A stretch of DNA of 64,000 bases from Longimicrobium sp. (GCF_048594345.1 NZ_JBMDXM010000289.1:456-64455); one strand, 5' to 3'. Positions 5,654-44,862 are shown, counted from the stretch's first letter. Translations and numbers: made by a program. Notes: a model not told the origin generated them from the letters alone.

Positions 5654-5834
5654 TGGACCCGGCGGGTTCGCGTAACCGACTGAATCGCCCCGTACCCAAC
5701 TTCCCCCAGGGTTTTTGGGGGGAGGTGGGCGAGGTTTACGAGCCCGGAGGGGGCGCGCCGCCGGCACGATGCATGTCGCCGAGCCGCGAATCTCCAGTAG
5801 TTGACGTGCGGTCGTGCGAGGAAGGAGGGGCGCG

Positions 5835-7031
5835 ATGAAGTTCGTCTTCTTCATCCACAGCGCCGTCAGCGACTGGAACCACGGCAACGCGCACTTTGTC
5901 CGCGGGCTGATGAGCGCGCTGACGCGGATGGGGCACGGCGTAGTGAGCTACGAGCCGCGCGGCGCCTGGTCCGTGGAGAACCTGCTGCGCGACCATGGCG
6001 TGGCCCCCATCGTCGACTTTGCCCGCGCGTATCCGGAGATCGACGTCCGCGACTACGATCCCGCGTCCCCGTCGCTGAACGACGACCTGGCGCGGGCTGT
6101 CGCGGGCGCGGACGTGGTGCTGGTGCACGAGTGGAACGATCCGCGGGTGGTGAACGCGCTGCCGCCGCTGGTGCGCGCGGCCGGCGGCATCCCGCTCTTC
6201 CACGACACGCACCACCGCCCGGTGAGCGACCCCGAGTCCATCGCCCGCTTTGACCTGCGGGCGTACGACGGCGTGCTGGCGTTCGGCGACGTGCTGCGCG
6301 ACGTGTACCTGGATCGCTTCGGGGTGCGGCGCGCGTGGACGTTTCACGAGGCCGCGGACGTGGAACGCTTCCGGCCGCTCGACCTGCCGAAGTCGACCGA
6401 CGTCATCTGGATCGGCAACTGGGGCGACGAGGAGCGCACGCAGGAGCTGCGCGACTACTGGCTGGGCGCCGCGCGGCGGTATCCCGAGCTGTCGTTCGTG
6501 GCGCACGGCGTCCGCTACCCGGAGTACGCGCTGGCGGAGCTGGCCGAGGCGGGCGTGGAGTTCCGCGGCTGGGCACCGTCCGTCCACGTGCCCGCCGCCT
6601 TCGCGCGCAGCCGGGTGACGCTGCACGTGCCGCGGCGCGCGTACGTGCAGGCGCTGCGGGGCATCCCCACCATCCGCGTGTTCGAGGCGCTGGCGTGCGG
6701 CATTCCGCTGGTCAGCGCGCCGTGGCTGGATTCGGAGAACCTGTTCCGCCCCGGGGACTACGTGTCGGTGGATTCGCCCGAGGCCATGTGGCTGGCGCTG
6801 CACCGCCTGGCCACGGACGACGACGCGCGGGCGGAGCAGGCGGCGCGCGGACTGGAAACCATCCTGGCGCGGCATACGTGCGGGCATCGGGCGGAGCAGC
6901 TGCTTGGAATCGTCGAAGAGCTCGGAAGCGTCGGCGCGGCGGGTGGAACAGAAGGGAATAGCGAACAGGGAATAGGAAATAGCCTGCAAACGCAGACGGA
7001 TTCACGCTCCACGGAGGCGGCATGCACCTGA
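5835..7031 (+). CDS. CgeB-like glycosyltransferase
   Basis: SAVSDWNHGNAHFVRGL, WIGNWG, PTIRVFEALACG; GGAGG RBS. Confidence 0.85.
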   Translation: MKFVFFIHSAVSDWNHGNAHFVRGLMSALTRMGHGVVSYEPRGAWSVENLLRDHGVAPIVDFARAYPEIDVRDYDPASPSLNDDLARAVAGADVVLVHEWNDPRVVNALPPLVRAAGGIPLFHDTHHRPVSDPESIARFDLRAYDGVLAFGDVLRDVYLDRFGVRRAWTFHEAADVERFRPLDLPKSTDVIWIGNWGDEERTQELRDYWLGAARRYPELSFVAHGVRYPEYALAELAEAGVEFRGWAPSVHVPAAFARSRVTLHVPRRAYVQALRGIPTIRVFEALACGIPLVSAPWLDSENLFRPGDYVSVDSPEAMWLALHRLATDDDARAEQAARGLETILARHTCGHRAEQLLGIVEELGSVGAAGGTEGNSEQGIGNSLQTQTDSRSTEAACT

Positions 7032-8104
7032 CGTTCTTTGGCTCGTCGCTCGTTTCGTCGTACTGGAACGGCGCCGCCACGTACTACCGCGGACTCATCC
7101 GCGCGCTGCACGGCCTTGGCCACACCGTCACCTTTTGCGAGCCGGACGCGTACGACCGGCAGAAGAACCGCGACCTGGCGACGGATCCGGCATACGCGCG
7201 CGTCATCGTCTACACGACGGAGGCGGAGCGCGACGCGCTGATCGAGCAGGCGTTCGCGGAAAGCGACTGGGTGATCAAGTGCAGCGGCGTGGGCGTGTGG
7301 GACGCCGAGCTTGAAGAGGCGGTCGCCGAGCGCTCCGGCGGGCGGGCGATGACGGCGTTTCTGGACGTGGACGCCCCCGCGACGCTCGGCCGCATCGCCG
7401 CGGACCCGGCGGACCCGTTCCGCATGCACATCCCCCGCTACGACCAGGTGTTCACCTACGGCGGCGGTCCGCCGGTGGTGCAGGAGTACGAGCGCTGGGG
7501 CGCCCGGGCGTGCACGCCCATCTACAACGCGCTCGATCCGGACGAGCACCGGCCCACGGAGGGCGTTGCCGTGGAGTACGACATCCTCTTCATGGGCAAC
7601 CGCCTGCCGGACCGCGAGGCGCGGGTGGAAGAGTTCTTTTTCCGCGCCGCCGCGCTTTGCCCCGAGCACAGGTTCCTGCTCGGCGGTGAGGGGTGGGGAT
7701 GGAAGACGGACATGCCGGCGAACGTCACGTATCTTGGCCACGTCCCCACCGGCCGCCACAACGCGGTGAACGCGAGCGCGCGGCTGGTGCTCAACATCCA
7801 CCGAGACAGCATGGTGCAGAACGGGTGGAGCCCGGCCACACGCATGTTCGAGGCGGCGGGCGCGGCCAGCTGCCAGGTGACGGACGCGTGGCAGGGGATC
7901 GAAGATTTCTTCGCGCCCGGCGAGGAGATCCTGGTCGCCGCCAGCGCGGAGGAGGTGGCGCAGCTGGTGCGTTCGGTGGATGACGAGCGGGCGCGGCGCA
8001 TCGGGCGGGCGGGGCGGGCGCGCGCGCTGGCGGACCACACCTACACCCGGCGCGCGCGGCAGATGGATGCCGTGCTGCGCGCCGCGCCCGTGGAGGCCGC
8101 ATGA
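7022..8104 (+). CDS. CgeB-like glycosyltransferase
   Basis: FGSSLVSSYWNGAATYYRGL, FMGNRLPDRE, SPATRMFEAA. Confidence 0.85.
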   Translation: MHLTFFGSSLVSSYWNGAATYYRGLIRALHGLGHTVTFCEPDAYDRQKNRDLATDPAYARVIVYTTEAERDALIEQAFAESDWVIKCSGVGVWDAELEEAVAERSGGRAMTAFLDVDAPATLGRIAADPADPFRMHIPRYDQVFTYGGGPPVVQEYERWGARACTPIYNALDPDEHRPTEGVAVEYDILFMGNRLPDREARVEEFFFRAAALCPEHRFLLGGEGWGWKTDMPANVTYLGHVPTGRHNAVNASARLVLNIHRDSMVQNGWSPATRMFEAAGAASCQVTDAWQGIEDFFAPGEEILVAASAEEVAQLVRSVDDERARRIGRAGRARALADHTYTRRARQMDAVLRAAPVEAA

Positions 8105-9174
8105 AGCTCGTCGTCTTCGGCCTGACCCTCTCCTCCAGCTGGGGGAACGGCCACGCGACCACCTACCGCGCACTGCTGCGCGCCTTTGCCGCGCGGGGGC
8201 ACGAGATCGTGTTCTACGAGTGGGACGCGCCCTGGTACAGCGGCAACCGCGACCTCAAGCACCCCGGCTACGTTACCCTCAAGCTCTACGACGACTGGGC
8301 CGCCGTATCCGCCCAGGCCATCGCCGAGGCAAAGGAGGCGGACGCCATCCTCGTCGGCTCCTACGTCAAGGACGGGCCGCGGGTGATCGACGACCTGGCC
8401 GAAGCCGGCGTGGACCCGCTCTTCTTTTACGACATCGACACGCCGGTGACGGTGGCGGCGCTGCGGAGCGGCGGGGCGGAGTACCTGCGGCGCGACCAGG
8501 TGCCGCTGTTCACGCGCTACCTGTCGTTCACCGGCGGACCGTTTCTGCACCAGGTGCTGGAGGGGGAGCTGGGCGCGCGCGAGGCCCGGCCGCTGTACTG
8601 CTCGGTGGATACGGATCGCTATCACCCCACGGACGTCGATCCGCTGCTGGTGAGCGACCTGGCGTACATGGGGACGTACGCGCCCGACCGGCAGCCGGTG
8701 CTGGAGCGGTTCCTGGTAGAGCCGGCGCGGCGGATGCCGGAGCGCAGGTTCTACGTGGCCGGCCCGCAGTACCCGGACGACATCCGCTGGCCGGCCAACG
8801 TGCTGCTGAACCCGCACCTGCCGCCGTCGCTGCACGCCGCTTTCTACAGCAGCGCCCGCTGGCAGCTCAACGCCACCCGCGCCGACATGGTGCAGGCCGG
8901 CTGGTCGCCCAGCGTGCGCCTGTTCGAGGCGGCCGCCTGCGGCGCCGCCATGATCAGCGACCGCTGGCCGGGCATCGACCACTTCTTCACCCCCGGCGTG
9001 GAGATCCTGCTTCCGGAGAGCACCGAGCAGGTCATCGACATCCTCCGCACCACCCACGACGACGACCGGCGGATGATCGGCCTTGCCGCGCGCGCGCGGA
9101 TCCTGGCCGAGCACACCGCCGCGCACCGCGCGGAGGAGCTGGAGGCGCTGGTGGGGGCCGAGGCGTCGGTCTGA
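8101..9174 (+). CDS. CgeB-like glycosyltransferase
   Basis: FGLTLSSSWGNGHATTYRAL, YMGTYAPDRQ, SPSVRLFEAAACG. Confidence 0.85.
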   Translation: MKLVVFGLTLSSSWGNGHATTYRALLRAFAARGHEIVFYEWDAPWYSGNRDLKHPGYVTLKLYDDWAAVSAQAIAEAKEADAILVGSYVKDGPRVIDDLAEAGVDPLFFYDIDTPVTVAALRSGGAEYLRRDQVPLFTRYLSFTGGPFLHQVLEGELGAREARPLYCSVDTDRYHPTDVDPLLVSDLAYMGTYAPDRQPVLERFLVEPARRMPERRFYVAGPQYPDDIRWPANVLLNPHLPPSLHAAFYSSARWQLNATRADMVQAGWSPSVRLFEAAACGAAMISDRWPGIDHFFTPGVEILLPESTEQVIDILRTTHDDDRRMIGLAARARILAEHTAAHRAEELEALVGAEASV

Positions 9175-9236
9175 TTTCGCGGTGGCGCAAACGGCCTCGT
9201 GGCCGCCACCTGGATCGCGAGGTAGAACGGACAGAG

Positions 9237-9265
9237 GGAGCCCGCCGGACCAGCCGGCGGGCTCC
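9237..9265. terminator. hairpin between convergent genes
   Basis: GGAGCCCGCCGG-ACCAG-CCGGCGGGCTCC, 12-bp perfect stem. Confidence 0.6.
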
Positions 9266-9360
9266 TTCGTTCGCACGTGTTGCGCGATCCGCCTCCTCGC
9301 GCGGCCGTTCTACCGGCGCGCGTCGGAGTGCGTGCTCAGCGCGTTGCGCCGCGGGTGGCG

Positions 9361-10653
9361 TCACCAGTTGAAGGTGACGCCGATGACGCTCATCTTGCCC
9401 GCGACGATCGGCGCCCACTGGCCGTTCCACGTGCCGTTGTAGCTTGCCGCGACAACCGGGCCCTTGGTCTGGGCGTCGTCGTTGCTCCAGATCGGCCCCG
9501 CCGGCACGTCCATCGTAAAGCTGACGCCGCCGCTGCCGCTGGCGGGTGCCGGGAACTCGACGCCGACGGTGCTCATCACCGAGCTGACCGCCGTACTCCA
9601 CTGGCCGTTCCACGTGCCGCCGTGAGCCGCGGCGACGATCGGCGCCTTGGTCTGCGCGTCATCGTTGCTCTCGATCGGGCCCGCGGGAATGCTCACGGCG
9701 AACGTGTTGCTCGTGCTTGCGGACGGGCTCGCCGAAGGGCTCTGCCCGCCCAGGCCGTTCACGATCGCGTTCGCGTAGTCCACCGGGTACGTGGCGCCCC
9801 CGCACGACGGGCTGTTCGCGCTCTCGTACTGAAACAGGTCGCCGCTGTTCCACAGAAAGCCGCCGGTGATGCCGCTCCCGCTGAGCCCCTGGAAGGTGCT
9901 CTGGAGGTCCGAAGGGCACGTGGTGCCCTCCCCGCCGGTGACCCAGTAGCCGGGCACCACAAAGGCGCCGGAGTCGGCGATGCCCGCGTCCGCGAGGTTT
10001 ACGGCGGTGATCCAGTCGAGGGGGTCGTTGCCCGCGCCGCCGGCGTAGCACTGCAGGTTGAGCCACTGCACGGGCTGCACGTTGCCGTTCAGCTGGTACA
10101 ACTGCTGGAGGCAGTACGTCCAGAACGGAATGTTCTCGTACGGGGAGTAGGTGACGCCCACGCCCAGGCTGCTCACCTTCATCGTGAGGTCGATGATCAT
10201 CGCTGCCTCCGCGGGCGTATACGCCGGCTTGATCAGCTTCCCCGTCGGGTCGTACTGCGCCTGTGGCTCGTAATCAAAGTCGACGGCGGTGACGGGGAAG
10301 GCGGCGCAGAGGGCTTGCAGGTTCTTTGCGCCTGCCGTGTCCCACGTTGCCTGCAGGTTCACGAAGTCGCTCGCCGTTCCCCATGCGCCCACCGACAGCA
10401 GGATCTCGCTGACGCCGCCCGACACCAGGGCGTTTACGTTGTCGGCGAAGTCGGAGCCGAGCTGCAGCTTGCCTCCGCTCACCATGGGGGTGTCGTTGTA
10501 GTAGAAATCGCCGTTCGCCTGAACGTGGATCGACCACAGAAGGACGGTGGTAAAGCCTCCCTTCGTGAGCTGGGTGATCTGCTCCGCATAGGAAGGCGAG
10601 GGGTTCGTCTCGTTGAAGAGCCCCGTTCCATAAAGTCCGACGCGAGTGCTCAT
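9361..10653 (-). CDS. GH18-like glycoside hydrolase fused to two MVL-type mannan-binding lectin repeats
   Basis: N-terminal ~300 aa with LLSVGAWG, AVDFDYE (DxDxE), LQCYAGG, GGFLW; C-terminal 2x PAGPI(W/E)SNDDAQ..NGQW repeats. Confidence 0.8.
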   Translation of the reverse strand: MSTRVGLYGTGLFNETNPSPSYAEQITQLTKGGFTTVLLWSIHVQANGDFYYNDTPMVSGGKLQLGSDFADNVNALVSGGVSEILLSVGAWGTASDFVNLQATWDTAGAKNLQALCAAFPVTAVDFDYEPQAQYDPTGKLIKPAYTPAEAAMIIDLTMKVSSLGVGVTYSPYENIPFWTYCLQQLYQLNGNVQPVQWLNLQCYAGGAGNDPLDWITAVNLADAGIADSGAFVVPGYWVTGGEGTTCPSDLQSTFQGLSGSGITGGFLWNSGDLFQYESANSPSCGGATYPVDYANAIVNGLGGQSPSASPSASTSNTFAVSIPAGPIESNDDAQTKAPIVAAAHGGTWNGQWSTAVSSVMSTVGVEFPAPASGSGGVSFTMDVPAGPIWSNDDAQTKGPVVAASYNGTWNGQWAPIVAGKMSVIGVTFNW

Positions 10654-10841
10654 GATCGGGGATCATCCTTTCCAGGATTCCGGGATTCCGGGATATTATC
10701 CGAGGAGGGGATACGGTGTGACGACAAGCCGCGATTGGGCTGTCGAGGGGGGCGCAGGTGGGCCCCGGGCGCATCCCGTACCCGGCACCCCTCTCGCCTG
10801 CATGCAACCGGGTTCACACCCCGGTGCTCGCGCCGCGCCGT

Positions 10842-10880
10842 GGGTGCACGTGCCGGGCACCGCGCCCGGCACGTGCACCC
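10842..10880. repeat. perfect 17-bp-stem hairpin between lectin and GH18 genes
   Basis: GGGTGCACGTGCCGGGC-ACCGC-GCCCGGCACGTGCACCC. Confidence 0.8.
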
Positions 10881-10955
10881 GATCCGCTTTCCGCCGGGCG
10901 GCCTTTCTCCTGTCGTGCTGGAGGGCTTGCCCAGGGCGTTACGCGGGTGGCGGTG

Positions 10956-11309
10956 TCACCAGTGGAAGGTGACGCCGATGACGCTCATCGCGCCCTCGAC
11001 GGTGGTCGTCCACTGGCCGTTCCACGTGCCGTTGTAGCTGGCCGCCACGATGGGGCCCTTGGTCTGGGCATCCTCGTTGTTCCAGATCGGCCCCGCCGGC
11101 ACGTCCATGGTAAACGTGACGCCGCCGCTGCCGTTGGCGGGCGCCGGGAACTCCACGTCGACGGTGCTCATCACCGAATCGACCACCGTCCGCCACTGGC
11201 CGTTCCACTTGCCGCCGTGGGCCGCGGCGACGATCGGCGCCTTGGTCTGGGCGTCGTCGTTGCTCCAGATCGGGCCCGCGGGGATGCTCACCGTGAATGA
11301 GCTGCTCAT
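10956..11309 (-). CDS. MVL-family mannan-binding lectin (two repeats, 117 aa)
   Basis: 2x PAGPIWxNxDAQxKxPIVAAxxxGxWNGQWxT repeats matching the Microcystis viridis lectin pattern; AAGGAG RBS before ATG 11309. Confidence 0.85.
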   Translation of the reverse strand: MSSSFTVSIPAGPIWSNDDAQTKAPIVAAAHGGKWNGQWRTVVDSVMSTVDVEFPAPANGSGGVTFTMDVPAGPIWNNEDAQTKGPIVAASYNGTWNGQWTTTVEGAMSVIGVTFHW

Positions 11310-11620
11310 GGTTCCGAACTCCTTGCATGATGTTTTGGGCCTTCGCCCGTCCATCCGCACCTCATTGTGCGGGTGGGTGTCACGCGTGGCGGGGAAAGCT
11401 CCCCGCCTCCGACTGTGACGGCCCCATTCAAGGCATGGCCCGTTCCACACGCCGCCCGGCAACGGCGCCACAATGTTGCGGTGCGTGCAAGTGCTTTTCT
11501 GGTATGCGTTTGCGGGTGCGGGCCGGCTGCAGGCAGTTGCTTCTTTCGGGCAGGGTTTTGTGCGGGGAGAGTGCACACTGGCGAGCAGATGTAATGTTTC
11601 GATGTAACGTCGTGAAAGGA

Positions 11621-11650
11621 TTGACTAACGCACCTCTTCCATTGTACTCT
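11621..11650 (+). promoter_or_regulatory. possible sigma70 promoter for the DyP pair
   Basis: TTGACT-N18-TACTCT in a lower-GC divergent intergenic region. Confidence 0.35.
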
Positions 11651-11741
11651 GTTACCGGATTCCGGAGCACGAGATCCTCACGCCCGGTCCTCTCCCGCAG
11701 GTTTTGACTCACCCATCTTTCCGATTCGGAGAACCCCCAGA

Positions 11742-12209
11742 ATGGCCAATCCGCTCACCCTCCTGATGCCCATCATCCCCGGCACCAGCCCCCTGGCGAT
11801 CGGCGCCGCGCTGGCGAAGTACAACGCCGAGATCAACAGTGCGCTCACCTCCATCGGCACGGTGCACTACGCCCGCTTTCTGCTGCTGGACCGGTCCGTC
11901 CCCAATCTTCAGCCCAACCTTGCCCCCGGCGCCCCGGCGTCCAACGAGCTGGTGCTGGCGGTGATCACGGAGTACGACGGCAGCTTCCAGGCGTACATCG
12001 GCGACTTCGTGGCGCAGATCGGCGACGTGTTCAACGCGCTGCTGCAGTTCGTGGTGGGCGGCGCGGCCGTCACCCCCGTCCAGAGCAACGTCGCCGCGTT
12101 CTCCGCGTTCGTCTCGGCGAACGACGCGTCGGAGCACCAGCCCAACGAAGGGCTGTACTCGGCGTATCCGCAGACGGTGCAGCAGATCATCGCCGCCTTC
12201 GACGTCTGA
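11742..12209 (+). CDS. small DyP-associated hypothetical protein
   Basis: 155 aa, IGTVHYARF and ITEYDGSFQAYIGDF motifs resembling small proteins often encoded beside DyP genes; coherent codon usage. Confidence 0.7.
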   Translation: MANPLTLLMPIIPGTSPLAIGAALAKYNAEINSALTSIGTVHYARFLLLDRSVPNLQPNLAPGAPASNELVLAVITEYDGSFQAYIGDFVAQIGDVFNALLQFVVGGAAVTPVQSNVAAFSAFVSANDASEHQPNEGLYSAYPQTVQQIIAAFDV

Positions 12210-12273
12210 AGCGGCCCGGCGGGAGCGTGCGCACCCGGTGTGCGCTCCCTCTCCTCCCACCGTCCCTCCCTTC

Positions 12274-13692
12274 ATGGCGACAACCCCCGAGATCGACTAC
12301 AACGACGTGCAGGGCACCATCCTGCGCGGCTATCGCGTTGACCTGGCCCGCCACTTCATCCTGCAGATCACCGATGCGGCGGCTGCGGGCGTGTTCATCG
12401 GCAACCTGGTGAACGGCACCGGCGGCGTACCCCGGATCACCCGGGCGCGGCGCTGGAAAGACAAGCCGGATTGCTTCGTCAACATCTCCTTTACCGCGCC
12501 CGGGCTGGCGGCGCTGGGGGTCACGGAGACGGAGCTCGCGACCTTCGATCCCGCCTTTGTCGCCGGCGCCACGGACGCCGCGGTGGCCACCGCGGTGGGC
12601 GACACGGGCTCCAGCGCGCCGGAGTGCTGGCTGGGCGGCATGCAGACCTGGCAGAACGCGCACGTGGTGCTGAGCCTGTGGGTGCACGAGGACGCGGCGG
12701 TGCTGGAAAGCCAGAGCGCCAGCCTGCGGGCGGGGTTCGCGGCGGGGATGAAGGAACTGCTCTTTCACGACGCCACGGCACTGCCCGACAACCACGTGCA
12801 CTTTGGCTACCGCGACAACATCGCGCAGCCCACGGTGATCGGTGCGCCGCCGCGCAAGCACGACATCCCCGACGACCAGCCGCCCGTGCCCACCGGTGAG
12901 TTTCTGCTGGGCTATCCCAACGCGTCCGGCTACGCTTATACCGTGACGCCGCAGCAGCTTTCCACCAACAGCAGCTACGCCGCGTTCCGCATCCTGGACC
13001 AGGACGTCGTGGGTTTCGAGGAGTTTCTTCAGACGTACGCGCCGCGGGCGGGCGTGGACCCGGAGATGCTGGCGGCCAAGGTGTGCGGCCGGTGGCGCAA
13101 CGGGAACCCGCTGGAGCTGATGCCCACCGAGCCCGGCACGGTGCTCCCCACGGACCAGCTGAACGACTTCACCTACGTCGCCGCCACCGTGCCGCCGGAC
13201 GACACGCTGGGCCTCAAGTGCCCCATCGGCTCGCACATCCGGCGCACCAACCCGCGCAACATGCTGGTGACGGGTACCGACAGCACACACCACCGCATCA
13301 CGCGCCGCGCCATGCCGTACGGCCCGGCGTACGACCCCGCCAACCCGGTCGACGTGCCGCGCGGGCTGATCGGCTACTTCATCAACGCAAGCGTGTTCAA
13401 CCAGTTCCAGTTCATCCAGGGGCAGTGGGCGCTCAAAGCCACCTTCGTAAAGTCGGCCAAGTCGCCGGGTGGCCAGCCGCCGGGCAACGCGGTCAACAAC
13501 ATCAGCGGCGAGGATGTGTTCCTGGGCGTCAACGACCCGTCCACCAGCTCGTTCACGCTGCCGGAGGAGCCGTCCAACCAGAAGGTCACCGGCTTTTCGC
13601 GGATGATCACCACCCGCGGCGGGGCCTACGTCTTCTTTCCCAGCATCACGGGCCTGAACTACCTCTCCACGCTTCCCGCCTCCACGACGTAA
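12274..13692 (+). CDS. DyP-type (dye-decolourising) heme peroxidase
   Basis: HFGYRDNIAQP (GxxDG-like), GEFLLGY, GSHIRRTNPR (proximal His), HRITRRAMPYG (distal Arg); no signal peptide. Confidence 0.9.
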   Translation: MATTPEIDYNDVQGTILRGYRVDLARHFILQITDAAAAGVFIGNLVNGTGGVPRITRARRWKDKPDCFVNISFTAPGLAALGVTETELATFDPAFVAGATDAAVATAVGDTGSSAPECWLGGMQTWQNAHVVLSLWVHEDAAVLESQSASLRAGFAAGMKELLFHDATALPDNHVHFGYRDNIAQPTVIGAPPRKHDIPDDQPPVPTGEFLLGYPNASGYAYTVTPQQLSTNSSYAAFRILDQDVVGFEEFLQTYAPRAGVDPEMLAAKVCGRWRNGNPLELMPTEPGTVLPTDQLNDFTYVAATVPPDDTLGLKCPIGSHIRRTNPRNMLVTGTDSTHHRITRRAMPYGPAYDPANPVDVPRGLIGYFINASVFNQFQFIQGQWALKATFVKSAKSPGGQPPGNAVNNISGEDVFLGVNDPSTSSFTLPEEPSNQKVTGFSRMITTRGGAYVFFPSITGLNYLSTLPASTT

Positions 13693-13721
13693 CGATCGTC
13701 AGCTGGATTGATGGGGCCGGA

Positions 13722-13848
13722 TGGATGGCGGTTCGATGCAGCCGGATGGATGGCGGTTCGATGGATCGGATTGAGGGGGCCGGGTTGATGTGCCGAATGA
13801 ATGGCAGTGCCCATGATGACGAGCGGCGCCGATCCGGATCGGCGCCGC
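13722..13848. repeat. tandem GGATGGATGGCGGTTCGATG repeat and 26-bp perfect palindrome
   Basis: two copies of GCCGGATGGATGGCGGTTCGATG; GCGGCGCCGATCCGGATCGGCGCCGC at 13823-13848. Confidence 0.7.
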
Positions 13849-13975
13849 TGTCGTTGTTGAACCGCATCTTCCCCCCTGTCCGGTACCGTCCGCATATTCC
13901 CCTCGCGAGCACCGGAACCCGGTATCCTCTCCGTTGACTCCGTGTACGGCCCATCCTTCTTCGTCGATCGGTCGA

Positions 13976-15100
13976 ATGCCCGCGAAGACCGCGGCCTCAT
14001 CCGAAGTGCTCGCCAACCGCGTCCTGAACCGGGCGCTGCTGGAGCGGCAGATGCTGCTTGGGCGCGTGCCCGTTTCCGTGGAAGACGCGCTGGAGCGGCT
14101 GGTGGGGATGCAGGCGCAGGCGCCCGATCCGCCGTACCTGGGGCTGTGGACGCGGCTGAAGGGCTTTCGCCTGGAGGACCTGTCGACGCTGATCCGTGGG
14201 CGGAAGGCGGTGCGCATCGCGTTGATGCGGTCCACGCTCTTCCTCGTCACGGCGCGCGACTGCCTGGCGCTGCGGCCGGTGCTGGATGCGGCCCTGCGCG
14301 ACTGGGCTCTCGGCGTGCACGCCAGGGGGCTGGCGGGGGTGGATCTGGACGCGCTGGCAAAGGCCGGGCGCGCGCTGGCTAAGGAGCAGCCGCGCACCTT
14401 CCACGAGCTGGGCCAGCTGCTGGGGAAGCGCTGGCCCGGCGCGGATCCGTCCGCGCTGGGCAACATGGTGCGCAACCTGGTTCCGCTGGTGCAGGTGCCC
14501 CCGCGCGGCATCTGGGGCGAGGGCGGCCCCGCCGCGCACACCACCGCCGAAGCGTGGCTCGGCCAGCCGCTGAGCCCGGAGCCCTCCGTGGACACCATGG
14601 TGCTGCGCTACCTGGCCGCCTTTGGTCCCGCAACCGCGCGCGACGTGCAGCACTGGTGCGGCCTCAAGCGCCTGGGCCAGGTGCTGGACCGGCTGCGTCC
14701 GCGCCTGCGCACCTTCCGCAGCGAGGCCGGCGCCGAGCTGTTCGACCTGCCCGACGCCCCGCGCCCGGACGCCGACGTCCCCGCGCCGGTGCGTCTGCTC
14801 CCCGAGTTCGACAACGTGCTGCTTTCCCACGCCGACCGCGCCCGCGTCATCAGCGAAGAGCGCCGCAAGCGGGTGTTCACCGTCAACGGCATCATCCGCC
14901 CCACCGTCCTGGTCGACGGGATGGTGCGGGGGATGTGGAAGATGGATCGAAGCCGCGGCGCCGCGACGCTCCTCATCTCCCCCTTCGAACCGCTGGCGGC
15001 CGCCGATCGCGCGGCGCTGGAGAAGGAGGCGATGGCGCTTCTCCGCTTCGCCCACGCCGACGCGAGCGATTACGACGTGCGATTCGGCCCGCCGGCGTGA
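13976..15100 (+). CDS. winged-helix DNA glycosylase, AlkZ/YcaQ family
   Basis: LNRALLERQMLL, GMQAQ (QxQ), YLGLWTRL, MRSTLFLV, RLLPEFDNVLLSH. Confidence 0.85.
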   Translation: MPAKTAASSEVLANRVLNRALLERQMLLGRVPVSVEDALERLVGMQAQAPDPPYLGLWTRLKGFRLEDLSTLIRGRKAVRIALMRSTLFLVTARDCLALRPVLDAALRDWALGVHARGLAGVDLDALAKAGRALAKEQPRTFHELGQLLGKRWPGADPSALGNMVRNLVPLVQVPPRGIWGEGGPAAHTTAEAWLGQPLSPEPSVDTMVLRYLAAFGPATARDVQHWCGLKRLGQVLDRLRPRLRTFRSEAGAELFDLPDAPRPDADVPAPVRLLPEFDNVLLSHADRARVISEERRKRVFTVNGIIRPTVLVDGMVRGMWKMDRSRGAATLLISPFEPLAAADRAALEKEAMALLRFAHADASDYDVRFGPPA

Positions 15101-15192
15101 TCCCGCCGCGCAGCCGCTTGCGGGAGGTGGCGGCGCAAACCAGCTTGGGACACGATCGTTCGCTACACGACCCGTCCCGATCCATCGTTGCC

Positions 15193-16584
15193 ATGATCCT
15201 GTCCAGCCCCTCCCTTCGCGCGGCGTTCGCCGCCTGCGCACTGGTCCTCGCTGGCGCGTGCGTGCCCGGCCGCGCCTCCACCGGTTCAACGCCGGAGCCG
15301 GAGCCGGGGACAACGCTGGAGCCGCGCGCGTGGACCGCGCAGTCCCCCGCGCCCGAGATCGCCGCCTGGGTTCAGGCGGGGTGCCGGCGCGCGCCGGGGG
15401 GCGCGGACGCGTGCGTGGAGCGCGCGCTGACCGGGCTGCTGGACCAGGCGGGCGTCGCCAAGAGCATGGAAGTGCTCGACACGCTGGCCCTGCGCGAAGA
15501 CGGCGTGCGCGATGATGCGCACGCGCTGGCGCACGGGCTGGGCATCTACGCCTATCGCTCGCCGGAGACGATGGCGCAAACGTTCGTCGCCTGCCCCACG
15601 TCGCAGATGTCCGGGTGCTACCACGGCGTCATCCAGGGCTACTTTCTGGACCTGGGCAGGCAGGGCAAGCCCGTGGGCACGGTGGAAGTGGATGCGCTGT
15701 GCGCGCCGCACACGGGGGAGCAGTTCATCTACTTCCATTGCGCGCACGGGATGGGGCACGGGCTGATGGCGCTGCACCAGAACCACCTGCCCACGGCGCT
15801 GCAGGGGTGCGACCTGGTCACCAGCGATTTCATCCGGGAAAGCTGCTACGGCGGCGCCTTCATGGAGAACGCCATCCAGGCCACGCACCCCCACCACACC
15901 GCCGCCGGCCACGCGCAGACGCAGGAGGCCGCGGGATCGCACGCCTCGGCGGACGCGCACGGGGGGCACGGCGCGCACGGCGGGGCCGATGCGCATGCGG
16001 GGCACGGGGCCGCGGGCGGCGCGCAGGCCATGCGGCACGGCGAGTGGCGCGCGCTGGACCGCGACGATCCGCTGTACCCGTGCAACGCCGTGGACGTAAA
16101 GTACCAGAGCGAATGCTACGGATTTCAGCCGTCGCCCATCATGTACTTCAACGGCGGCGACGTCGCGGCCACCGCGCGGGCGTGCGAGCAGGTGCCGGAG
16201 GCGTTCCAGGCCACCTGCTTCGGCAGCCTGGGCCGCGAGATCACCGCCTGGGCCGACCAGGACCACGCCCGCACGCTCGCCATGTGCGGCCGCGTCGGCG
16301 CGCTGGGGGGCGGCAAGGGAAAGGTGCTGTGCGAGGGCGGCGCCGTGGCCACCCTGATGAACCAGGCCGCCGACCCGCAGGACGGCATCCGCTTCTGCCA
16401 CGCCGTGCAGGGCGCGGAGGCCAAGGAAACCTGCTACGCGCGCGTCGGCGGCTTCACCATCACGCTCATCGGCAACGACGTGCAGGCCCGCGCGCGCCAC
16501 TGCGCCGCCGCCGAGCCGGGGTTCGTCGCCACCTGCCGCCGCGCGGCGGAGGTCGATCCGCCGACGCAGCGGGCGGACAGGTAG
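15193..16584 (+). CDS. Cys/His-rich lipoprotein of unknown function (paralogue 1)
   Basis: lipobox VLAGAC; HALAHGLG, GCYHG, CAHGMGHG, CYGGAFMEN; His-rich insert. Confidence 0.8.
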   Translation: MILSSPSLRAAFAACALVLAGACVPGRASTGSTPEPEPGTTLEPRAWTAQSPAPEIAAWVQAGCRRAPGGADACVERALTGLLDQAGVAKSMEVLDTLALREDGVRDDAHALAHGLGIYAYRSPETMAQTFVACPTSQMSGCYHGVIQGYFLDLGRQGKPVGTVEVDALCAPHTGEQFIYFHCAHGMGHGLMALHQNHLPTALQGCDLVTSDFIRESCYGGAFMENAIQATHPHHTAAGHAQTQEAAGSHASADAHGGHGAHGGADAHAGHGAAGGAQAMRHGEWRALDRDDPLYPCNAVDVKYQSECYGFQPSPIMYFNGGDVAATARACEQVPEAFQATCFGSLGREITAWADQDHARTLAMCGRVGALGGGKGKVLCEGGAVATLMNQAADPQDGIRFCHAVQGAEAKETCYARVGGFTITLIGNDVQARARHCAAAEPGFVATCRRAAEVDPPTQRADR

Positions 16585-16647
16585 CCCGCATTCCGAGGGC
16601 GGGAAGACGACTACAGGAAACTGAGGTCAGGGTACAGAGGAACAGGC

Positions 16648-16702
16648 AACAGCCAGAGGAACAGAGGAGAGAAGGCGGATCACCTCTGTTCCTCTGGCTG
16701 TT
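16648..16702. repeat. 20-bp-stem hairpin repeat (family C)
   Basis: AACAGCCAGAGGAACAGAGG...CCTCTGTTCCTCTGGCTGTT; same arms at 35162-35215. Confidence 0.8.
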
Positions 16703-16853
16703 CTCCGTCCCTGTGTACCTTCCCGCTGTGGTTTGCCCGCGTCTGGGCATCATGCCAGCCCCGGCGCACGGTTGCGAATGCCCGCGCCCGGAGCCAATTT
16801 TGCGTGCGCCGGATGGATCGCTCCGGCCCAGATTCCCATCCAATCAGGCGACG

Positions 16854-18275
16854 ATGACGTTTTCCTTGCACCGGCGCTTTGTGTGCGCCGCGTTTGCCGC
16901 GTGCGCGGCCCTGCTCACCGCGTGTACGCCCTCCGCGCGTTCCGGCGCCGGCGGCCCCGCGCCGGACCTCCAGAGCGCGCCCGATACGCGCGTATGGACC
17001 GCCGAGTCGCCGGCCAGCGAGATCTCGCGCTGGGTGCGGCGGGAGTGCGGCAGCCGCTTTCGGAACAAGCAGGCGTGCGTGGAGCGCACCCTGGTGGCGC
17101 TCATCGACCAGACCGGCATCGGCCGCACCATGGAGGTGCTCGACACGCTGGTGAACGTGGACGGCGACGTGCGCTTCAACGCCCACGCGCTGGCGCACGG
17201 GCTGGGCATTGCCGCATACCGTACGCCGGAAACGCTGGCCACCACCTTTGCCGCCTGCCCGCCCACGCAGATGTCCGGCTGCTACCACGGTGTCGTGCAG
17301 GGCTACTTTCTTTCACTGGCGCGGCAGGGCCGGCTTCCCGGCACGCCGGAACTGAACGCGATGTGCGAGCCGCACCGCGGCACCACGTTCCTGTTCTTTC
17401 AATGTGCGCACGGCGTGGGGCACGGGTTGATGGCCGTGCACGACAACCACGTGCCCATGTCGCTGGACGCGTGCGACCTGGCCAGCGACAAGTTCATCCG
17501 TGACTCCTGCTACGGCGGCGTGTTCATGGAGAACGTGGTGAGCGTCACCCATCCGCACCACACCGCCGAGGGCCACGCCGGCACGCAGGAGGCGCATGGC
17601 GGGCACGATGCACAGCCCGCCGCCGACGCCCACGCGGCTCATGGCGCCGCCGGCCAGCACGCCCACGCCGGGGCCGATGCGCACGCGGGCCACGGCGCCG
17701 CCGGCCAGCAGGCGCAGGCGGCCATGCAGCACACCCCGTGGCGTCCGCTGAACCGCGACGACCCGCTGTACCCGTGCAACGCCGTCGCGGAAAAGTACCA
17801 GGAGGCGTGCTACATGATGCAGACGTCCGCCATCCTGTACTTCAACGGCGGCGACGTGGCCGCCACGGGCCGTGCGTGCGAGGGCGCCCCGGCTTCCATG
17901 CAGGCGCTCTGCTTCGGCAGCCTGGGGCGCGACATCACCGCGCTGGCCAGCCAGCAGCACGCGCGCTCGCTGGAGCTGTGCGGGCGCACCGCGGGGCAGG
18001 CGGGCGGCCGGGGCCAGCTGTGGTGCACGGTGGGCGTGGTGCAGAACCTGGTGAACGTCGCCGCCGATCCCGGCGAGGGCCTGCGCTTCTGCCGCGCCGT
18101 CGCCGGTGGGGACACCAAGAGCCAGTGCTACCGCGCGGTGGGGGAGATGATCGGCACGCTGGTGAACGCCCCCGCCCAGCGCAGCGAGTCGTGCCAGGGC
18201 GCCGAACCCGAGTACGTCGCCGTCTGCCGCAGCGGCGCCGGCGTAGAAACCTCCGCCGGCAGCGACGACGAGTAG
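16854..18275 (+). CDS. Cys/His-rich lipoprotein of unknown function (paralogue 2)
   Basis: lipobox LLTAC; same motifs as paralogue 1 (HALAHGLG, GCYHG, CAHGVGHG, CYGGVFMEN, DDPLYPCNAV). Confidence 0.8.
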   Translation: MTFSLHRRFVCAAFAACAALLTACTPSARSGAGGPAPDLQSAPDTRVWTAESPASEISRWVRRECGSRFRNKQACVERTLVALIDQTGIGRTMEVLDTLVNVDGDVRFNAHALAHGLGIAAYRTPETLATTFAACPPTQMSGCYHGVVQGYFLSLARQGRLPGTPELNAMCEPHRGTTFLFFQCAHGVGHGLMAVHDNHVPMSLDACDLASDKFIRDSCYGGVFMENVVSVTHPHHTAEGHAGTQEAHGGHDAQPAADAHAAHGAAGQHAHAGADAHAGHGAAGQQAQAAMQHTPWRPLNRDDPLYPCNAVAEKYQEACYMMQTSAILYFNGGDVAATGRACEGAPASMQALCFGSLGRDITALASQQHARSLELCGRTAGQAGGRGQLWCTVGVVQNLVNVAADPGEGLRFCRAVAGGDTKSQCYRAVGEMIGTLVNAPAQRSESCQGAEPEYVAVCRSGAGVETSAGSDDE

Positions 18276-44464: not shown

Positions 44465-44862
44465 TCGTGCGCGTCCGCAAAAAGAATGGGGCTCACGCAG
44501 AGTCAGCAGAGTTAGCAGAGTTTTACGTGCCGGTTCCTCCGATTCGTGTCGAGTTCACAACAAGATAGGCCTCACACGGAGTCAACGGAGTTAACGGAGT
44601 TTGCTCGTGCCGTTTCCTCGTCCGACGCGGCACCAGCCGGATTGGGGATGTCGGGAACGGGAGGTAGAATGAATGCGGCAGGGGGCCATCCGCGTTTTTC
44701 TGACGGGCATGAGGATCGGCGGATGAGCTTCCGAAGCGGCGGAGCGCACGCCGATCGGATCACCTGATGCGCGATCTTGAGAGCCCTCTGCCGACTCGAC
44801 CGCCGAGGTGAGTGGCAGGGCGTCGGCATCTTCGTCCACATCCACGATCAACTGACCGGGCA

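What the first reader, a model, noticed from the sequence alone, without database searches (positions are those of the whole stretch)
9361..13692. Four-gene divergent island: MVL lectin + GH18-MVL hydrolase back-to-back with a DyP peroxidase and small partner
Seen: two minus-strand genes (lectin, lectin-fused hydrolase) and two plus-strand genes (155-aa partner, DyP) share one ~430-bp lower-GC control region. The block has a terminator on the left and repeats on the right, and none of the four proteins has a signal peptide. Known: MVL binds the Man-GlcNAc2 core of high-mannose N-glycans, GH18 includes chitinases and endo-beta-N-acetylglucosaminidases, and DyPs oxidise phenolics/dyes with H2O2. 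Inference: a co-regulated glycan-recognition, hydrolysis and oxidation module acting on eukaryotic (fungal, algal or protist) surfaces, or in defence. I do not recall this combination being described.
Basis: partly seen in the sequence, partly recalled or inferred. Interest (0 to 1): 0.8.

Follow-up and report, generated by a model that had tools for sequence, protein, structure and literature searches.

The report
Two unrelated gene pairs, back to back
The four genes are real, but they are two separate, widely conserved two-gene units (a lectin with a chitinase-like enzyme, and a small unknown protein with a DyP peroxidase) that lie side by side only in this Longimicrobium lineage, so there is no evidence for a four-gene sugar-and-oxidation machine.

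Summary
All four genes exist as described: GH18-like+2xMVL (9361-10653, -), MVL lectin (10956-11309, -), a 155-aa protein (11742-12209, +) and a class V DyP (12238/12274-13692, +), around a 432-bp lower-GC spacer.

The four-gene unit does not recur.
- Of 80 MVL loci from many phyla, 8 carry the GH18-like gene next to MVL. None carries DyP or the 155-aa gene.
- Of 80 loci holding the 155-aa gene, 75 have DyP directly downstream. None has MVL or the GH18-like gene.
- Among 25 genomes of the genus, the two pairs co-occur only in this one.
- One syntenic metagenome contig (L005) repeats the layout, which fits shared ancestry.
- In two other Longimicrobium genomes the 155-aa/DyP pair sits among different neighbours.

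Each pair is a real unit.
- The GH18-like enzyme is leaderless, keeps DxDxE, and pairs with interchangeable lectins: MVL, jacalin, or fused ricin-B.
- The 155-aa protein is an unannotated ferredoxin-like domain. It is fused N-terminally to DyP in L005 and in at least 10 other protein clusters.

Verdict: two independent modules juxtaposed. The island idea is not supported. The two pairings are modestly novel.

The parts
5814..9174 (+). Context: three paralogous Glyco_trans_1_2 (PF13524) glycosyltransferase genes (5814-7031, 7022-8104, 8101-9174), convergent with the GH18-like gene
   Evidence: Pfam E 1.5e-32 to 7e-42. The same trio flanks the MVL/GH18-like pair in L005, L006 and L026, which are all Longimicrobium, and in no other phylum.
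9234..9268 (.). Hairpin (15-nt arms, 5-nt loop) between the convergent GT and GH18-like genes; a probable bidirectional terminator
9361..10653 (-). GH18-like catalytic domain (aa 1-~305; 9739-10653) fused to a tandem MVL lectin (aa ~315-430; 9361-9720)
   Evidence: Pfam MVL. PDB 1zhq 7.6e-29. AF2 pLDDT 96.3 TIM barrel. Foldseek GH18 chitinases 6k7z 2.1e-10 and 2y8v. Profile against GH18 chains 1.5e-6. D125/D127/E129 conserved.
9285..9724 (-). Segmental duplicate of the neighbouring MVL gene plus 76 bp of its 3' flank (84% identical to 10880-11319); origin of the lectin fusion
   Evidence: blastn. The fusion is present in the window and L005 but absent from L006 and G208.
10695..10724 (-). Sigma-70-like promoter match just upstream of the GH18-like start
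   Evidence: consensus match only
10842..10880 (.). Perfect 17-nt inverted repeat (5-nt loop), 76 nt downstream of the MVL stop
10956..11309 (-). Stand-alone MVL lectin, 117 aa, two MVL repeats, no leader
   Evidence: Pfam PF12151 E 6.5e-24. 350 homologues. The two MVL-bearing genes here are the only MVL copies in the genome.
11310..11741 (.). 432-bp lower-GC divergent spacer. About 70-140 bp next to MVL and about 190 bp next to the 155-aa gene are conserved in relatives; the middle is not.
   Evidence: It is unique in the genome and has no Rfam hit.
11742..12209 (+). p155: an unannotated ferredoxin-like protein, the conserved upstream partner of DyP
   Evidence: No Pfam, NCBIfam or PDB hit. 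597 close homologues. AF2 pLDDT 79.6 with beta-alpha-beta topology. DyP lies downstream in 75 of 80 loci. Fusions to DyP.
12238..13692 (+). Class V (C-type) DyP peroxidase, leaderless; the likely start is ATG 12274
   Evidence: PDB 8re3 1.7e-59. D193, H333 and R356/R357 are invariant in the clade. The motif is GYRDN.
13705..13792 (+). Three ~25-nt direct repeats downstream of DyP
   Evidence: Essentially unique in the genome.
13822..13849 (+). Perfect 14+14 palindrome; terminator-like hairpin after DyP
13934..15100 (+). Context: AlkZ-like DNA glycosylase, absent from the syntenic contig L005
   Evidence: Pfam PF06224 1.8e-90

Best explanation
The 'island' is two independent two-gene modules that became neighbours in one Longimicrobium lineage.

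Module A (minus strand) is a leaderless MVL lectin followed by a leaderless, divergent GH18-like glycosidase. In this lineage a duplicate of the neighbouring MVL gene was appended to the enzyme's 3' end, giving the enzyme its own lectin. The inferred mechanism is that the lectin binds a GlcNAc/Man-containing glycan (the MVL of Microcystis binds the Man-beta-1,4-GlcNAc-beta-1,4-GlcNAc core and chito-oligosaccharides; recalled, not tested here) and concentrates or orients the retaining DxDxE hydrolase on it, much as a carbohydrate-binding module does.

Module B (plus strand) is a two-gene operon. A ~150-aa ferredoxin-like protein of an unannotated family comes immediately before a cytoplasmic class V DyP. 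The small protein is inferred to be a physically associated accessory subunit or domain of the peroxidase. Possible roles are haem loading, oligomer assembly or substrate gating. Which of these applies is not shown.

The shared spacer is most likely just two separate promoter regions placed back to back.
For: Module A recurs without B.
- The GH18-like gene lies next to MVL in 8 of 80 MVL loci, from Gemmatimonadota, Acidobacteriota, Bacteroidota, Actinomycetota and Myxococcota. DyP and p155 are found in 0 of 80.
- No third gene recurs with the pair outside Longimicrobium.
- The same enzyme family pairs with other lectins: a jacalin gene 104 bp upstream in Sorangium and a fused ricin-B domain.

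Module B recurs without A.
- DyP lies directly downstream, on the same strand, in 75 of 80 p155 loci. MVL and the GH18-like gene are found in 0 of 80.
- The pair is present in named isolates (Janthinobacterium lividum, Tahibacter) among other neighbours.
- p155 and DyP are fused in frame in L005 and in at least 10 representative clusters, always with p155 N-terminal.

Within the genus.
- p155 is in 7 of 25 genomes and the GH18-like gene in 4 of 25. Only G000 has both.
- MVL is in 1 of 201 genomes sampled from the phylum.
- The p155-DyP coding block is 82-84% identical in G201 and L007, but its flanks there map to other contigs of this genome.
- The window's DyP groups with those copies (support 100/95) rather than with its positional counterpart in L005.
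- L006 and G208 keep MVL, the GH18-like gene and the GT trio, but have different genes on the other side of MVL.
Against: - One other contig (L005, a different species, about 86% DNA identity in the GT region) has the same divergent four-gene layout with a ~400-bp spacer. The juxtaposition has therefore persisted through at least one speciation.
- Expression data could not be obtained, so lineage-specific co-regulation is not excluded.
- Many metagenome contigs are short, so 0 of 80 is weaker than it sounds. About 30 loci had at least 4 kb of flank.
- Only the best 80 of 206 MVL loci were examined.
- The biochemical roles of both modules are inferred from homology, fold and gene linkage only.
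Confidence: 0.8

Rival explanations
1. One reading: all four genes form one co-regulated module that recognises (MVL), hydrolyses (GH18) and oxidises (DyP plus partner) glycans or glycoconjugates on eukaryotic surfaces, or acts in defence.
For: - The divergent layout around one lower-GC spacer is real and is kept in L005.
- A class V DyP has been reported to act on O-glycosides (title and abstract of PMC11107159), so a glycoside-and-oxidation logic is conceivable.
Against: - No MVL-DyP or GH18-like-p155 linkage appears in 160 loci sampled from both sides.
- The two pairs are disjointly distributed in the genus.
- The p155-DyP pair sits in other contexts in congeners.
- All four proteins lack leaders, which fits poorly with action on foreign cell surfaces.
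- None hits PADLOC.
Confidence: 0.06
2. Lineage-specific co-option: the two modules are independent elsewhere, but in this Longimicrobium clade they have come under one divergent control region and are induced together, for example by a plant- or fungus-derived glycosylated aromatic compound.
For: - The juxtaposition and spacer length (432 against about 400 bp) are retained between the window and L005, despite 73-86% DNA divergence.
- About 190 bp upstream of p155 and about 70 bp upstream of MVL are alignable between them.
Against: - The middle of the spacer is not conserved.
- The MVL-proximal part is also conserved in L006, where no DyP is present, so it belongs to the MVL module alone.
- No inverted repeat or operator-like element is found in the spacer.
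- Synteny between the window and L005 extends across the whole ~13 kb, so retention needs no selection.
Confidence: 0.1
3. The region to the right of MVL is simply a variable or rearrangement-prone segment, and the p155-DyP pair is one of several alternative accessory cargos that landed there. This is compatible with the best explanation but puts the emphasis on a hotspot.
For: - Three different right-hand neighbours of MVL are seen in three Longimicrobium genomes (window, L005, L006).
- The AlkZ-like gene is present only in the window.
- A dispersed ~270-bp repeat lies just upstream of MVL in L006, with dozens of copies in G000.
- The L005 DyP is not sister to the window's DyP.
Against: - No integrase, transposase, tRNA or direct-repeat boundaries were seen around 11310-13933.
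- The L005 DyP sits on a long branch, so its placement is unsure.
Confidence: 0.3

Closest known systems
MVL, the mannan-binding lectin of Microcystis viridis (PDB 1ZHQ/1ZHS; Pfam PF12151)
   Same: Two tandem ~54-aa repeats, the same length (117 against 113 aa), no leader, and about 50% identity. E 7.6e-29 to 1zhq for the fused copy.
   Different: Found here in a Gemmatimonadota genome, paired with and also fused to a GH18-like enzyme. The first repeat of the fused copy has Glu where family members have the conserved Trp (AGPIE against AGPIW). Sugar specificity is untested.
GH18 class III / hevamine-type single-domain chitinases (e.g. A. fumigatus ChiC 2Y8V, Pseudoalteromonas GH18 6K7Z)
   Same: A ~300-aa (beta/alpha)8 barrel without a chitinase insertion domain. 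A DxDxE motif (DFDYE) that aligns to the GH18 DGIDxDWE motif. Foldseek E 2e-10 to 6e-08.
   Different: Only 16-18% identity, TM about 0.6, and below Pfam PF00704 detection. Leaderless in nearly all members. Systematically partnered with lectins. Substrate unknown.
GH18 endo-beta-N-acetylglucosaminidases (Endo H/F type)
   Same: Small single-domain GH18 barrels. The MVL partner's known ligand is the N-glycan chitobiose core, which ENGases cut (recalled knowledge).
   Different: No ENGase appeared among the 50 best fold matches or the profile hits. The ENGase idea is only a lead.
DrDyP of Deinococcus radiodurans (PDB 8RE2/8RE3), a class V / C-type DyP
   Same: Best solved relative (E 1.7e-59, full length). 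Catalytic Asp, distal Arg and proximal His are conserved. The fifth position of GXXDG is not Gly (Met in DrDyP, Asn here). Cytoplasmic (PMC10820274).
   Different: About 35-40% identity. Whether DrDyP has a p155-type partner was not checked. DrDyP is reported inactive at neutral pH; nothing is known for this clade.
Known DyP partner systems: encapsulin-cargo DyPs and EfeUOB/Tat-exported class I DyPs
   Same: A DyP encoded in a tight operon with a dedicated partner.
   Different: There is no encapsulin shell gene, no C-terminal targeting peptide, no Tat signal and no EfeU/EfeO here. The partner is a 150-aa ferredoxin-like protein upstream of DyP.
Dimeric alpha+beta-barrel (ABM/Dabb/stress-responsive) small proteins
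   Same: The p155 model has beta-alpha-beta ferredoxin-like topology. Its best Foldseek neighbours are such proteins (3kkf, 3fmb, 2ifx; prob 0.94-0.97).
   Different: E-values are 0.014 or worse and TM is 0.37-0.57. p155 is about 50 residues longer. There is no sequence or profile similarity, and none to the DyP domains themselves.

Membership tests
MVL lectin (PF12151) | Two tandem MVL repeats scoring above Pfam's gathering cut-off | tested here: met
   68 and 84 bits against a cut-off of 25, with two stretches in each protein. 1zhq E 7.6e-29.
MVL lectin (PF12151) | Binding of Man-GlcNAc2 core or chito-oligosaccharides | not testable with these tools
   Needs glycan array or ITC. W->E in repeat 1 of the fused copy may alter one site.
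Glycoside hydrolase family 18 | Match to the family model (Pfam PF00704) on the protein itself | tested here: not met
   No Pfam or NCBIfam hit, even at E<=10. Some homologues at 36-41% identity do carry PF00704.
Glycoside hydrolase family 18 | Profile-level sequence similarity to solved GH18 enzymes | tested here: met
   Family profile against PDB: only GH18 chains at the top, best 1.5e-6.
Glycoside hydrolase family 18 | (beta/alpha)8 barrel fold | tested here: met
   AF2 pLDDT 96.3. Foldseek top hits are GH18 chitinases, E 2e-10, TM about 0.6. Other TIM-barrel families follow closely.
Glycoside hydrolase family 18 | Catalytic D-x-D-x-E motif on strand beta4 | tested here: met
   DFDYE. D127 and E129 are invariant and D125 is at least 90% conserved in 46 sequences. 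The motif aligns to DGIDIDWE.
Glycoside hydrolase family 18 | Chitinase or ENGase activity | not testable with these tools
   Enzyme assay needed.
DyP-type peroxidase, class V (C/D) | Full-length homology to solved class V DyPs | tested here: met
   8re3 1.7e-59 and 7anv 3.3e-35, plus fungal DyPs and DyP2. Pfam DyP_N 29.7 against 27.5 bits. TIGR01413 64 bits, below its 100.5 cut-off.
DyP-type peroxidase, class V (C/D) | Distal Asp and Arg and proximal His | tested here: met
   D193, R356/R357 and H333 are invariant in 54 clade members and align with DrDyP's residues.
DyP-type peroxidase, class V (C/D) | Canonical GXXDG fingerprint | tested here: not met
   GYRDN: the fifth position is Asn. DrDyP likewise deviates with Met.
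Class I (A-type) exported DyP / encapsulin-cargo DyP | Tat signal, or a C-terminal cargo peptide with an adjacent encapsulin gene | tested here: not met
   The N-terminus MATTPEIDY has no twin-arginine leader. No encapsulin-like ORF is nearby. Judged by eye only.
Dimeric alpha+beta-barrel (ABM/Dabb) superfamily, for p155 | Significant structural or profile similarity | tested here: inconclusive
   Foldseek best E 0.014, prob up to 0.97, TM 0.37-0.57. No sequence hit.
Conserved four-gene cluster (MVL + GH18 + p155 + DyP) | Recurrence of the linkage in independent lineages | tested here: not met
   0 of 80 from the MVL side and 0 of 80 from the p155 side. Only L005, a syntenic close relative, repeats it.
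p155-DyP two-gene operon | Same-strand adjacency across lineages, and domain fusions | tested here: met
   75 of 80 loci, Janthinobacterium and Tahibacter, and fusions.
Lectin + leaderless GH18-like two-gene unit | Same-strand adjacency or fusion with a lectin across lineages | tested here: met
   8 MVL loci in five phyla, jacalin in Sorangium, and ricin-B and MVL fusions. Caulobacter and one other locus show no recognisable lectin.

The most novel reading that the evidence does not exclude
Two undescribed partnerships sit side by side here.

(1) The ~150-aa 'GTVH[YF]ARF...EYDGSF' domain is an obligate third ferredoxin-like domain or subunit of a large clade of cytoplasmic class V DyPs. It is encoded upstream of DyP, or fused N-terminally to it. 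Some DyP-P450 megaproteins carry the fused form. It may be what these poorly active enzymes need for haem loading or activity.

(2) A leaderless GH18-like enzyme family works with interchangeable lectins (MVL, jacalin, ricin-B) as detachable or fused targeting modules.

The still more novel reading, a functional four-gene unit in this lineage, is not excluded, but I put it at about 0.06-0.1.
Probability: 0.45. Interest if true: 0.55.

Novelty: new variant of a known kind. Interest (0 to 1): 0.38.

Why it matters
The proposed four-gene module would have been a new combination, but the evidence is against it, so it should not be propagated into annotation.

What remains useful:
- The physiological role of bacterial class V DyPs is unknown, and the closest solved one is inactive at neutral pH (PMC10820274). 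A near-universal partner protein, sometimes fused to DyP and without any family annotation, gives a concrete and testable handle. It is present in culturable Janthinobacterium.
- MVL is known mainly as an antiviral reagent with no known native role. Its repeated pairing with a leaderless GH18-like enzyme suggests what it does in the cell.

Tried and rejected
- Pfam and NCBIfam on the 305-aa N-terminal domain and on p155, down to E 10: nothing.
- PDB sequence and profile searches for p155: nothing.
- Foldseek for p155: only non-significant ferredoxin-like neighbours.
- hhalign of the p155 family against the DyP family, to test whether p155 is a split-off DyP domain: probability 0.3%, rejected.
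- PADLOC on the four proteins plus the AlkZ-like gene: nothing, so no support for a known defence system.
- Rfam over 8500-15500 at E<=1: only two chance-level eukaryotic or archaeal small-RNA matches.
- Promoter scan: no sigma-70-like site in the central spacer.
- Search for operator-like inverted repeats in the spacer: none.
- Search for a recurrent third gene with MVL/GH18-like across phyla: none. The apparent clusters were overlapping-frame artefacts of high GC.
- A link between the GT trio and the lectin pair: seen only within Longimicrobium, so it is not evidence.
- Literature searches for a described DyP partner of this kind or an MVL-GH18 pairing: nothing found.

Full report
**1. What is in the sequence**

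- 9361-10653 (-), 430 aa.
- 10956-11309 (-), 117 aa, when started at the ATG of 'MSSSF'. That ATG has an AAGGAG 9 nt upstream.
- 11742-12209 (+), 155 aa, called p155 below.
- 12238-13692 (+), 484 aa from a GTG. Homologues start to align at the ATG at 12274, 'MATTPEIDY'.

The spacer between the divergent starts is 432 bp, with GC about 0.59-0.60 against about 0.70 around it.

Between the convergent glycosyltransferase gene (end 9174) and the 430-aa gene there is a 15-nt-arm hairpin at 9234-9268. Downstream of the last gene lie three 25-nt direct repeats (13705-13792) and a perfect 14+14 palindrome (13822-13849). A perfect 17-nt inverted repeat (10842-10880) and a promoter-like site (10724-10695) lie between the two minus-strand genes.

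None of the four N-termini looks like a Sec or Tat leader. This was judged by eye, as no predictor was available.

**2. Identity of the four proteins**

*MVL.* Pfam PF12151 hits both minus-strand proteins well above its cut-off. The C-terminal 113 residues of the 430-aa protein align to the Microcystis viridis lectin 1zhq at 7.6e-29. The two genes that carry them are the only MVL-bearing genes in the 7.4-Mb genome.

*The 'GH18' domain (aa 1-305).* It is invisible to Pfam and NCBIfam, even at E 10. The assignment nonetheless holds up.
- A profile of 46 family members finds only GH18 chitinases at the top of the PDB (best 1.5e-6). It aligns the family's DFDYE to the GH18 DGIDIDWE motif.
- D127 and E129 are invariant, and D125 is at least 90% conserved.
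- An AlphaFold model (pLDDT 96.3) is a (beta/alpha)8 barrel. Its best Foldseek matches are small GH18 chitinases: 6k7z at 2.1e-10 and the class III ChiC 2y8v.

It is therefore a divergent, single-domain, hevamine-like GH18 relative. Its substrate is unknown.

*DyP.* The best solved relative is the Deinococcus radiodurans class V (C-type) enzyme, 8re3, at 1.7e-59. Fungal and other class V DyPs follow (PMC10820274). The distal Asp (D193), distal Arg (R356/R357) and proximal His (H333) are invariant in 54 members of this clade. The fingerprint reads GYRDN rather than GXXDG.

*p155.* It has no Pfam, NCBIfam, PDB-sequence or PDB-profile match. Its model (pLDDT 79.6) has ferredoxin-like beta-alpha-beta topology. 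Foldseek gives only non-significant similarity to dimeric alpha+beta-barrel proteins (best E 0.014). It is not detectably related to the DyP domains (hhalign probability 0.3%).

**3. Do the four genes belong together?**

The organism is a Longimicrobium MAG. A congeneric contig is titled 'Longimicrobium sp.'.

*From the MVL side.* I took the 80 best of 206 MVL-encoding loci in one genome per species, with 10 kb of flank on each side.
- The GH18-like gene lies beside MVL in 8 loci: Longimicrobium, Thermoanaerobaculia, Acidimicrobiales, Polyangia, and four Bacteroidota.
- In seven of those it lies directly downstream on the same strand.
- DyP and p155 are found in none.

*From the p155 side.* Of the 80 best of 158 metagenome loci, 75 have the DyP directly downstream on the same strand. 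Three of the other five end too soon to tell. None has MVL or the GH18-like gene.

*Within the genus.* Among 25 genomes, p155 occurs in 7 and the GH18-like gene in 4. Only this genome has both. MVL occurs in 1 of 201 genomes sampled across the phylum.

*The one exception.* Contig L005 is a 29-kb metagenome contig. It is collinear with the window over the whole region: about 86% DNA identity over the glycosyltransferases, 85% over MVL, and 73% over p155-DyP. The paralogous genes further right also match. L005 has the same divergent four-gene layout with a ~400-bp spacer. Because the synteny is global, this is shared ancestry rather than independent recurrence.

*A third Longimicrobium arrangement.* L006 and G208 keep the GT trio, the GH18-like gene (without the lectin fusion) and MVL. 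Synteny then breaks about 140 bp upstream of MVL. The other side holds a GT2, a methyltransferase and pilin-like genes, which in this genome lie on another contig.

*The p155-DyP block elsewhere.* It is 82-84% identical in G201 (L027) and in L007, yet their flanks map to other contigs of this genome. In a DyP tree the window's enzyme groups with those copies (100/95). The L005 enzyme falls outside, on a long branch.

Taken together, the two arms are independent modules that became neighbours in one lineage.

**4. Each module on its own**

*Module A.* The GH18-like family is nearly always leaderless. It is repeatedly associated with lectins of unrelated folds.
- MVL, adjacent in five phyla and fused here, in L005 and in P0020.
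- A 301-aa tandem jacalin gene 104 bp upstream in two Sorangium genomes.
- A fused ricin-B domain in P0061.

Caulobacter homologues have two small unannotated genes upstream instead.

The fusion in this window arose by segmental duplication. Positions 10880-11319 (the MVL gene plus 76 bp of 3' flank) are 84% identical to 9285-9724.

The most likely mechanism is lectin-assisted glycan hydrolysis, with the lectin acting as a carbohydrate-binding module does. This is inferred, not shown. The adjacent trio of Glyco_trans_1_2 genes travels with the pair only within Longimicrobium, so it says nothing yet.

*Module B.* p155 homologues are 63-87% identical across Gemmatimonadota and Proteobacteria. 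They have about 40 invariant positions, including H42, R45, D79, D88 and H132.
- In L005 p155 and DyP form one 682-aa ORF.
- A profile search of 1.84 billion representatives found 664 proteins with the domain.
- At least ten clusters have it N-terminal to a DyP of this clade. Some also have a C-terminal cytochrome P450.
- The gene order and the domain order are the same.

This is strong Rosetta-stone evidence that p155 works physically with the DyP. Whether it loads haem, builds the oligomer or gates the substrate is open.

**5. Comparison with what is known, and novelty**

The individual families (MVL, GH18, class V DyP) are known. I found no paper describing an MVL-GH18 pairing or a DyP partner of this kind. 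The library is incomplete, however.

Two unchecked first-stage notes from other genomes describe the same two pairs separately: e1-4234741, with a 158-aa partner plus DyP, and e1-5006405, with an MVL-like lectin plus a leaderless GH18-like protein. This agrees with the census.

The four-gene island as a functional unit is not supported. The two pairings are new variants of known kinds (enzyme plus lectin; haem enzyme plus accessory domain).

**6. Limits**

- Many metagenome contigs are short.
- Only the best 80 loci per scan were inspected.
- Absence of leaders was judged by eye.
- All functions are inferred.

**Verdict:** ordinary juxtaposition of two independently conserved and individually under-studied gene pairs. 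Interest 0.38.

Noticed in passing
L005:5094-7142 (-): In the syntenic metagenome contig, p155 and DyP are one in-frame 682-aa ORF joined by a ~45-aa Pro/Ala-rich linker. This is either a natural fusion or a lost stop codon or assembly error.
   Followed up: partly
P0407, P0414, P0438, P0451 (1100-1260 aa): These are megaproteins with one or two p155-like domains, a DyP of this clade and a C-terminal cytochrome P450. I do not recall a DyP-P450 fusion architecture being described. Their organisms are unknown.
   Followed up: partly
P0377, P0383, P0396, P0400, P0402 etc. (570-650 aa): The p155-like domain also forms the C-terminus of ~600-aa proteins. Some have signal peptides. Their ~430-aa N-terminal part has no Pfam hit and is not DyP. 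Tandem two-domain proteins of ~285-295 aa also exist.
   Followed up: no
L193/L194:3991-5909 (Sorangium): A tandem jacalin lectin gene lies directly upstream of a GH18-like homologue (71% identical to the window's domain). The enzyme is the same but the lectin fold differs.
   Followed up: partly
window 9361-9720 (aa ~330 of the 430-aa protein): The first MVL repeat of the fused copy reads AGPIESN, where the stand-alone MVL, L005 and the family consensus have AGPIW(S/N)N. The conserved Trp is replaced by Glu, which may disable or retune one sugar site.
   Followed up: no
window 5814-9174: Three consecutive, overlapping, mutually paralogous (27-37% identical) Glyco_trans_1_2 genes are 88-97% conserved in three Longimicrobium relatives. 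This is much more than the lectin, GH18-like or DyP genes next to them.
   Followed up: partly
window 15210-18275: Two tandem paralogous genes encode ~460-aa Cys- and His-rich proteins with lipoprotein-like leaders and HGxxAHGG-type His/Ala/Gly runs. They have no Pfam hit. Both are also duplicated in L005.
   Followed up: no
L006:1780-2080 and 6620-6897; window ~44619-44808: Two dispersed ~250-290-bp repeat families have dozens of copies across the contigs of G000. One copy sits immediately upstream of MVL at the synteny break in L006.
   Followed up: no
window 13934-15100: An AlkZ-like DNA glycosylase gene (PF06224, 1.8e-90) lies between DyP and the His-rich paralogues. It is absent from the otherwise syntenic L005, which has an unrelated 335-aa gene there.
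   Followed up: no
L029 (G218), L011 (G224), L122: Tandem duplications of the module occur in relatives: two complete p155-DyP pairs in a row, or p155-p155-DyP.
   Followed up: no
G000 contig C86:11853-13337: The genome holds a second, distant DyP homologue (31% identical). p155 occurs only once in the genome, in this window, so this copy has no p155 partner.
   Followed up: no
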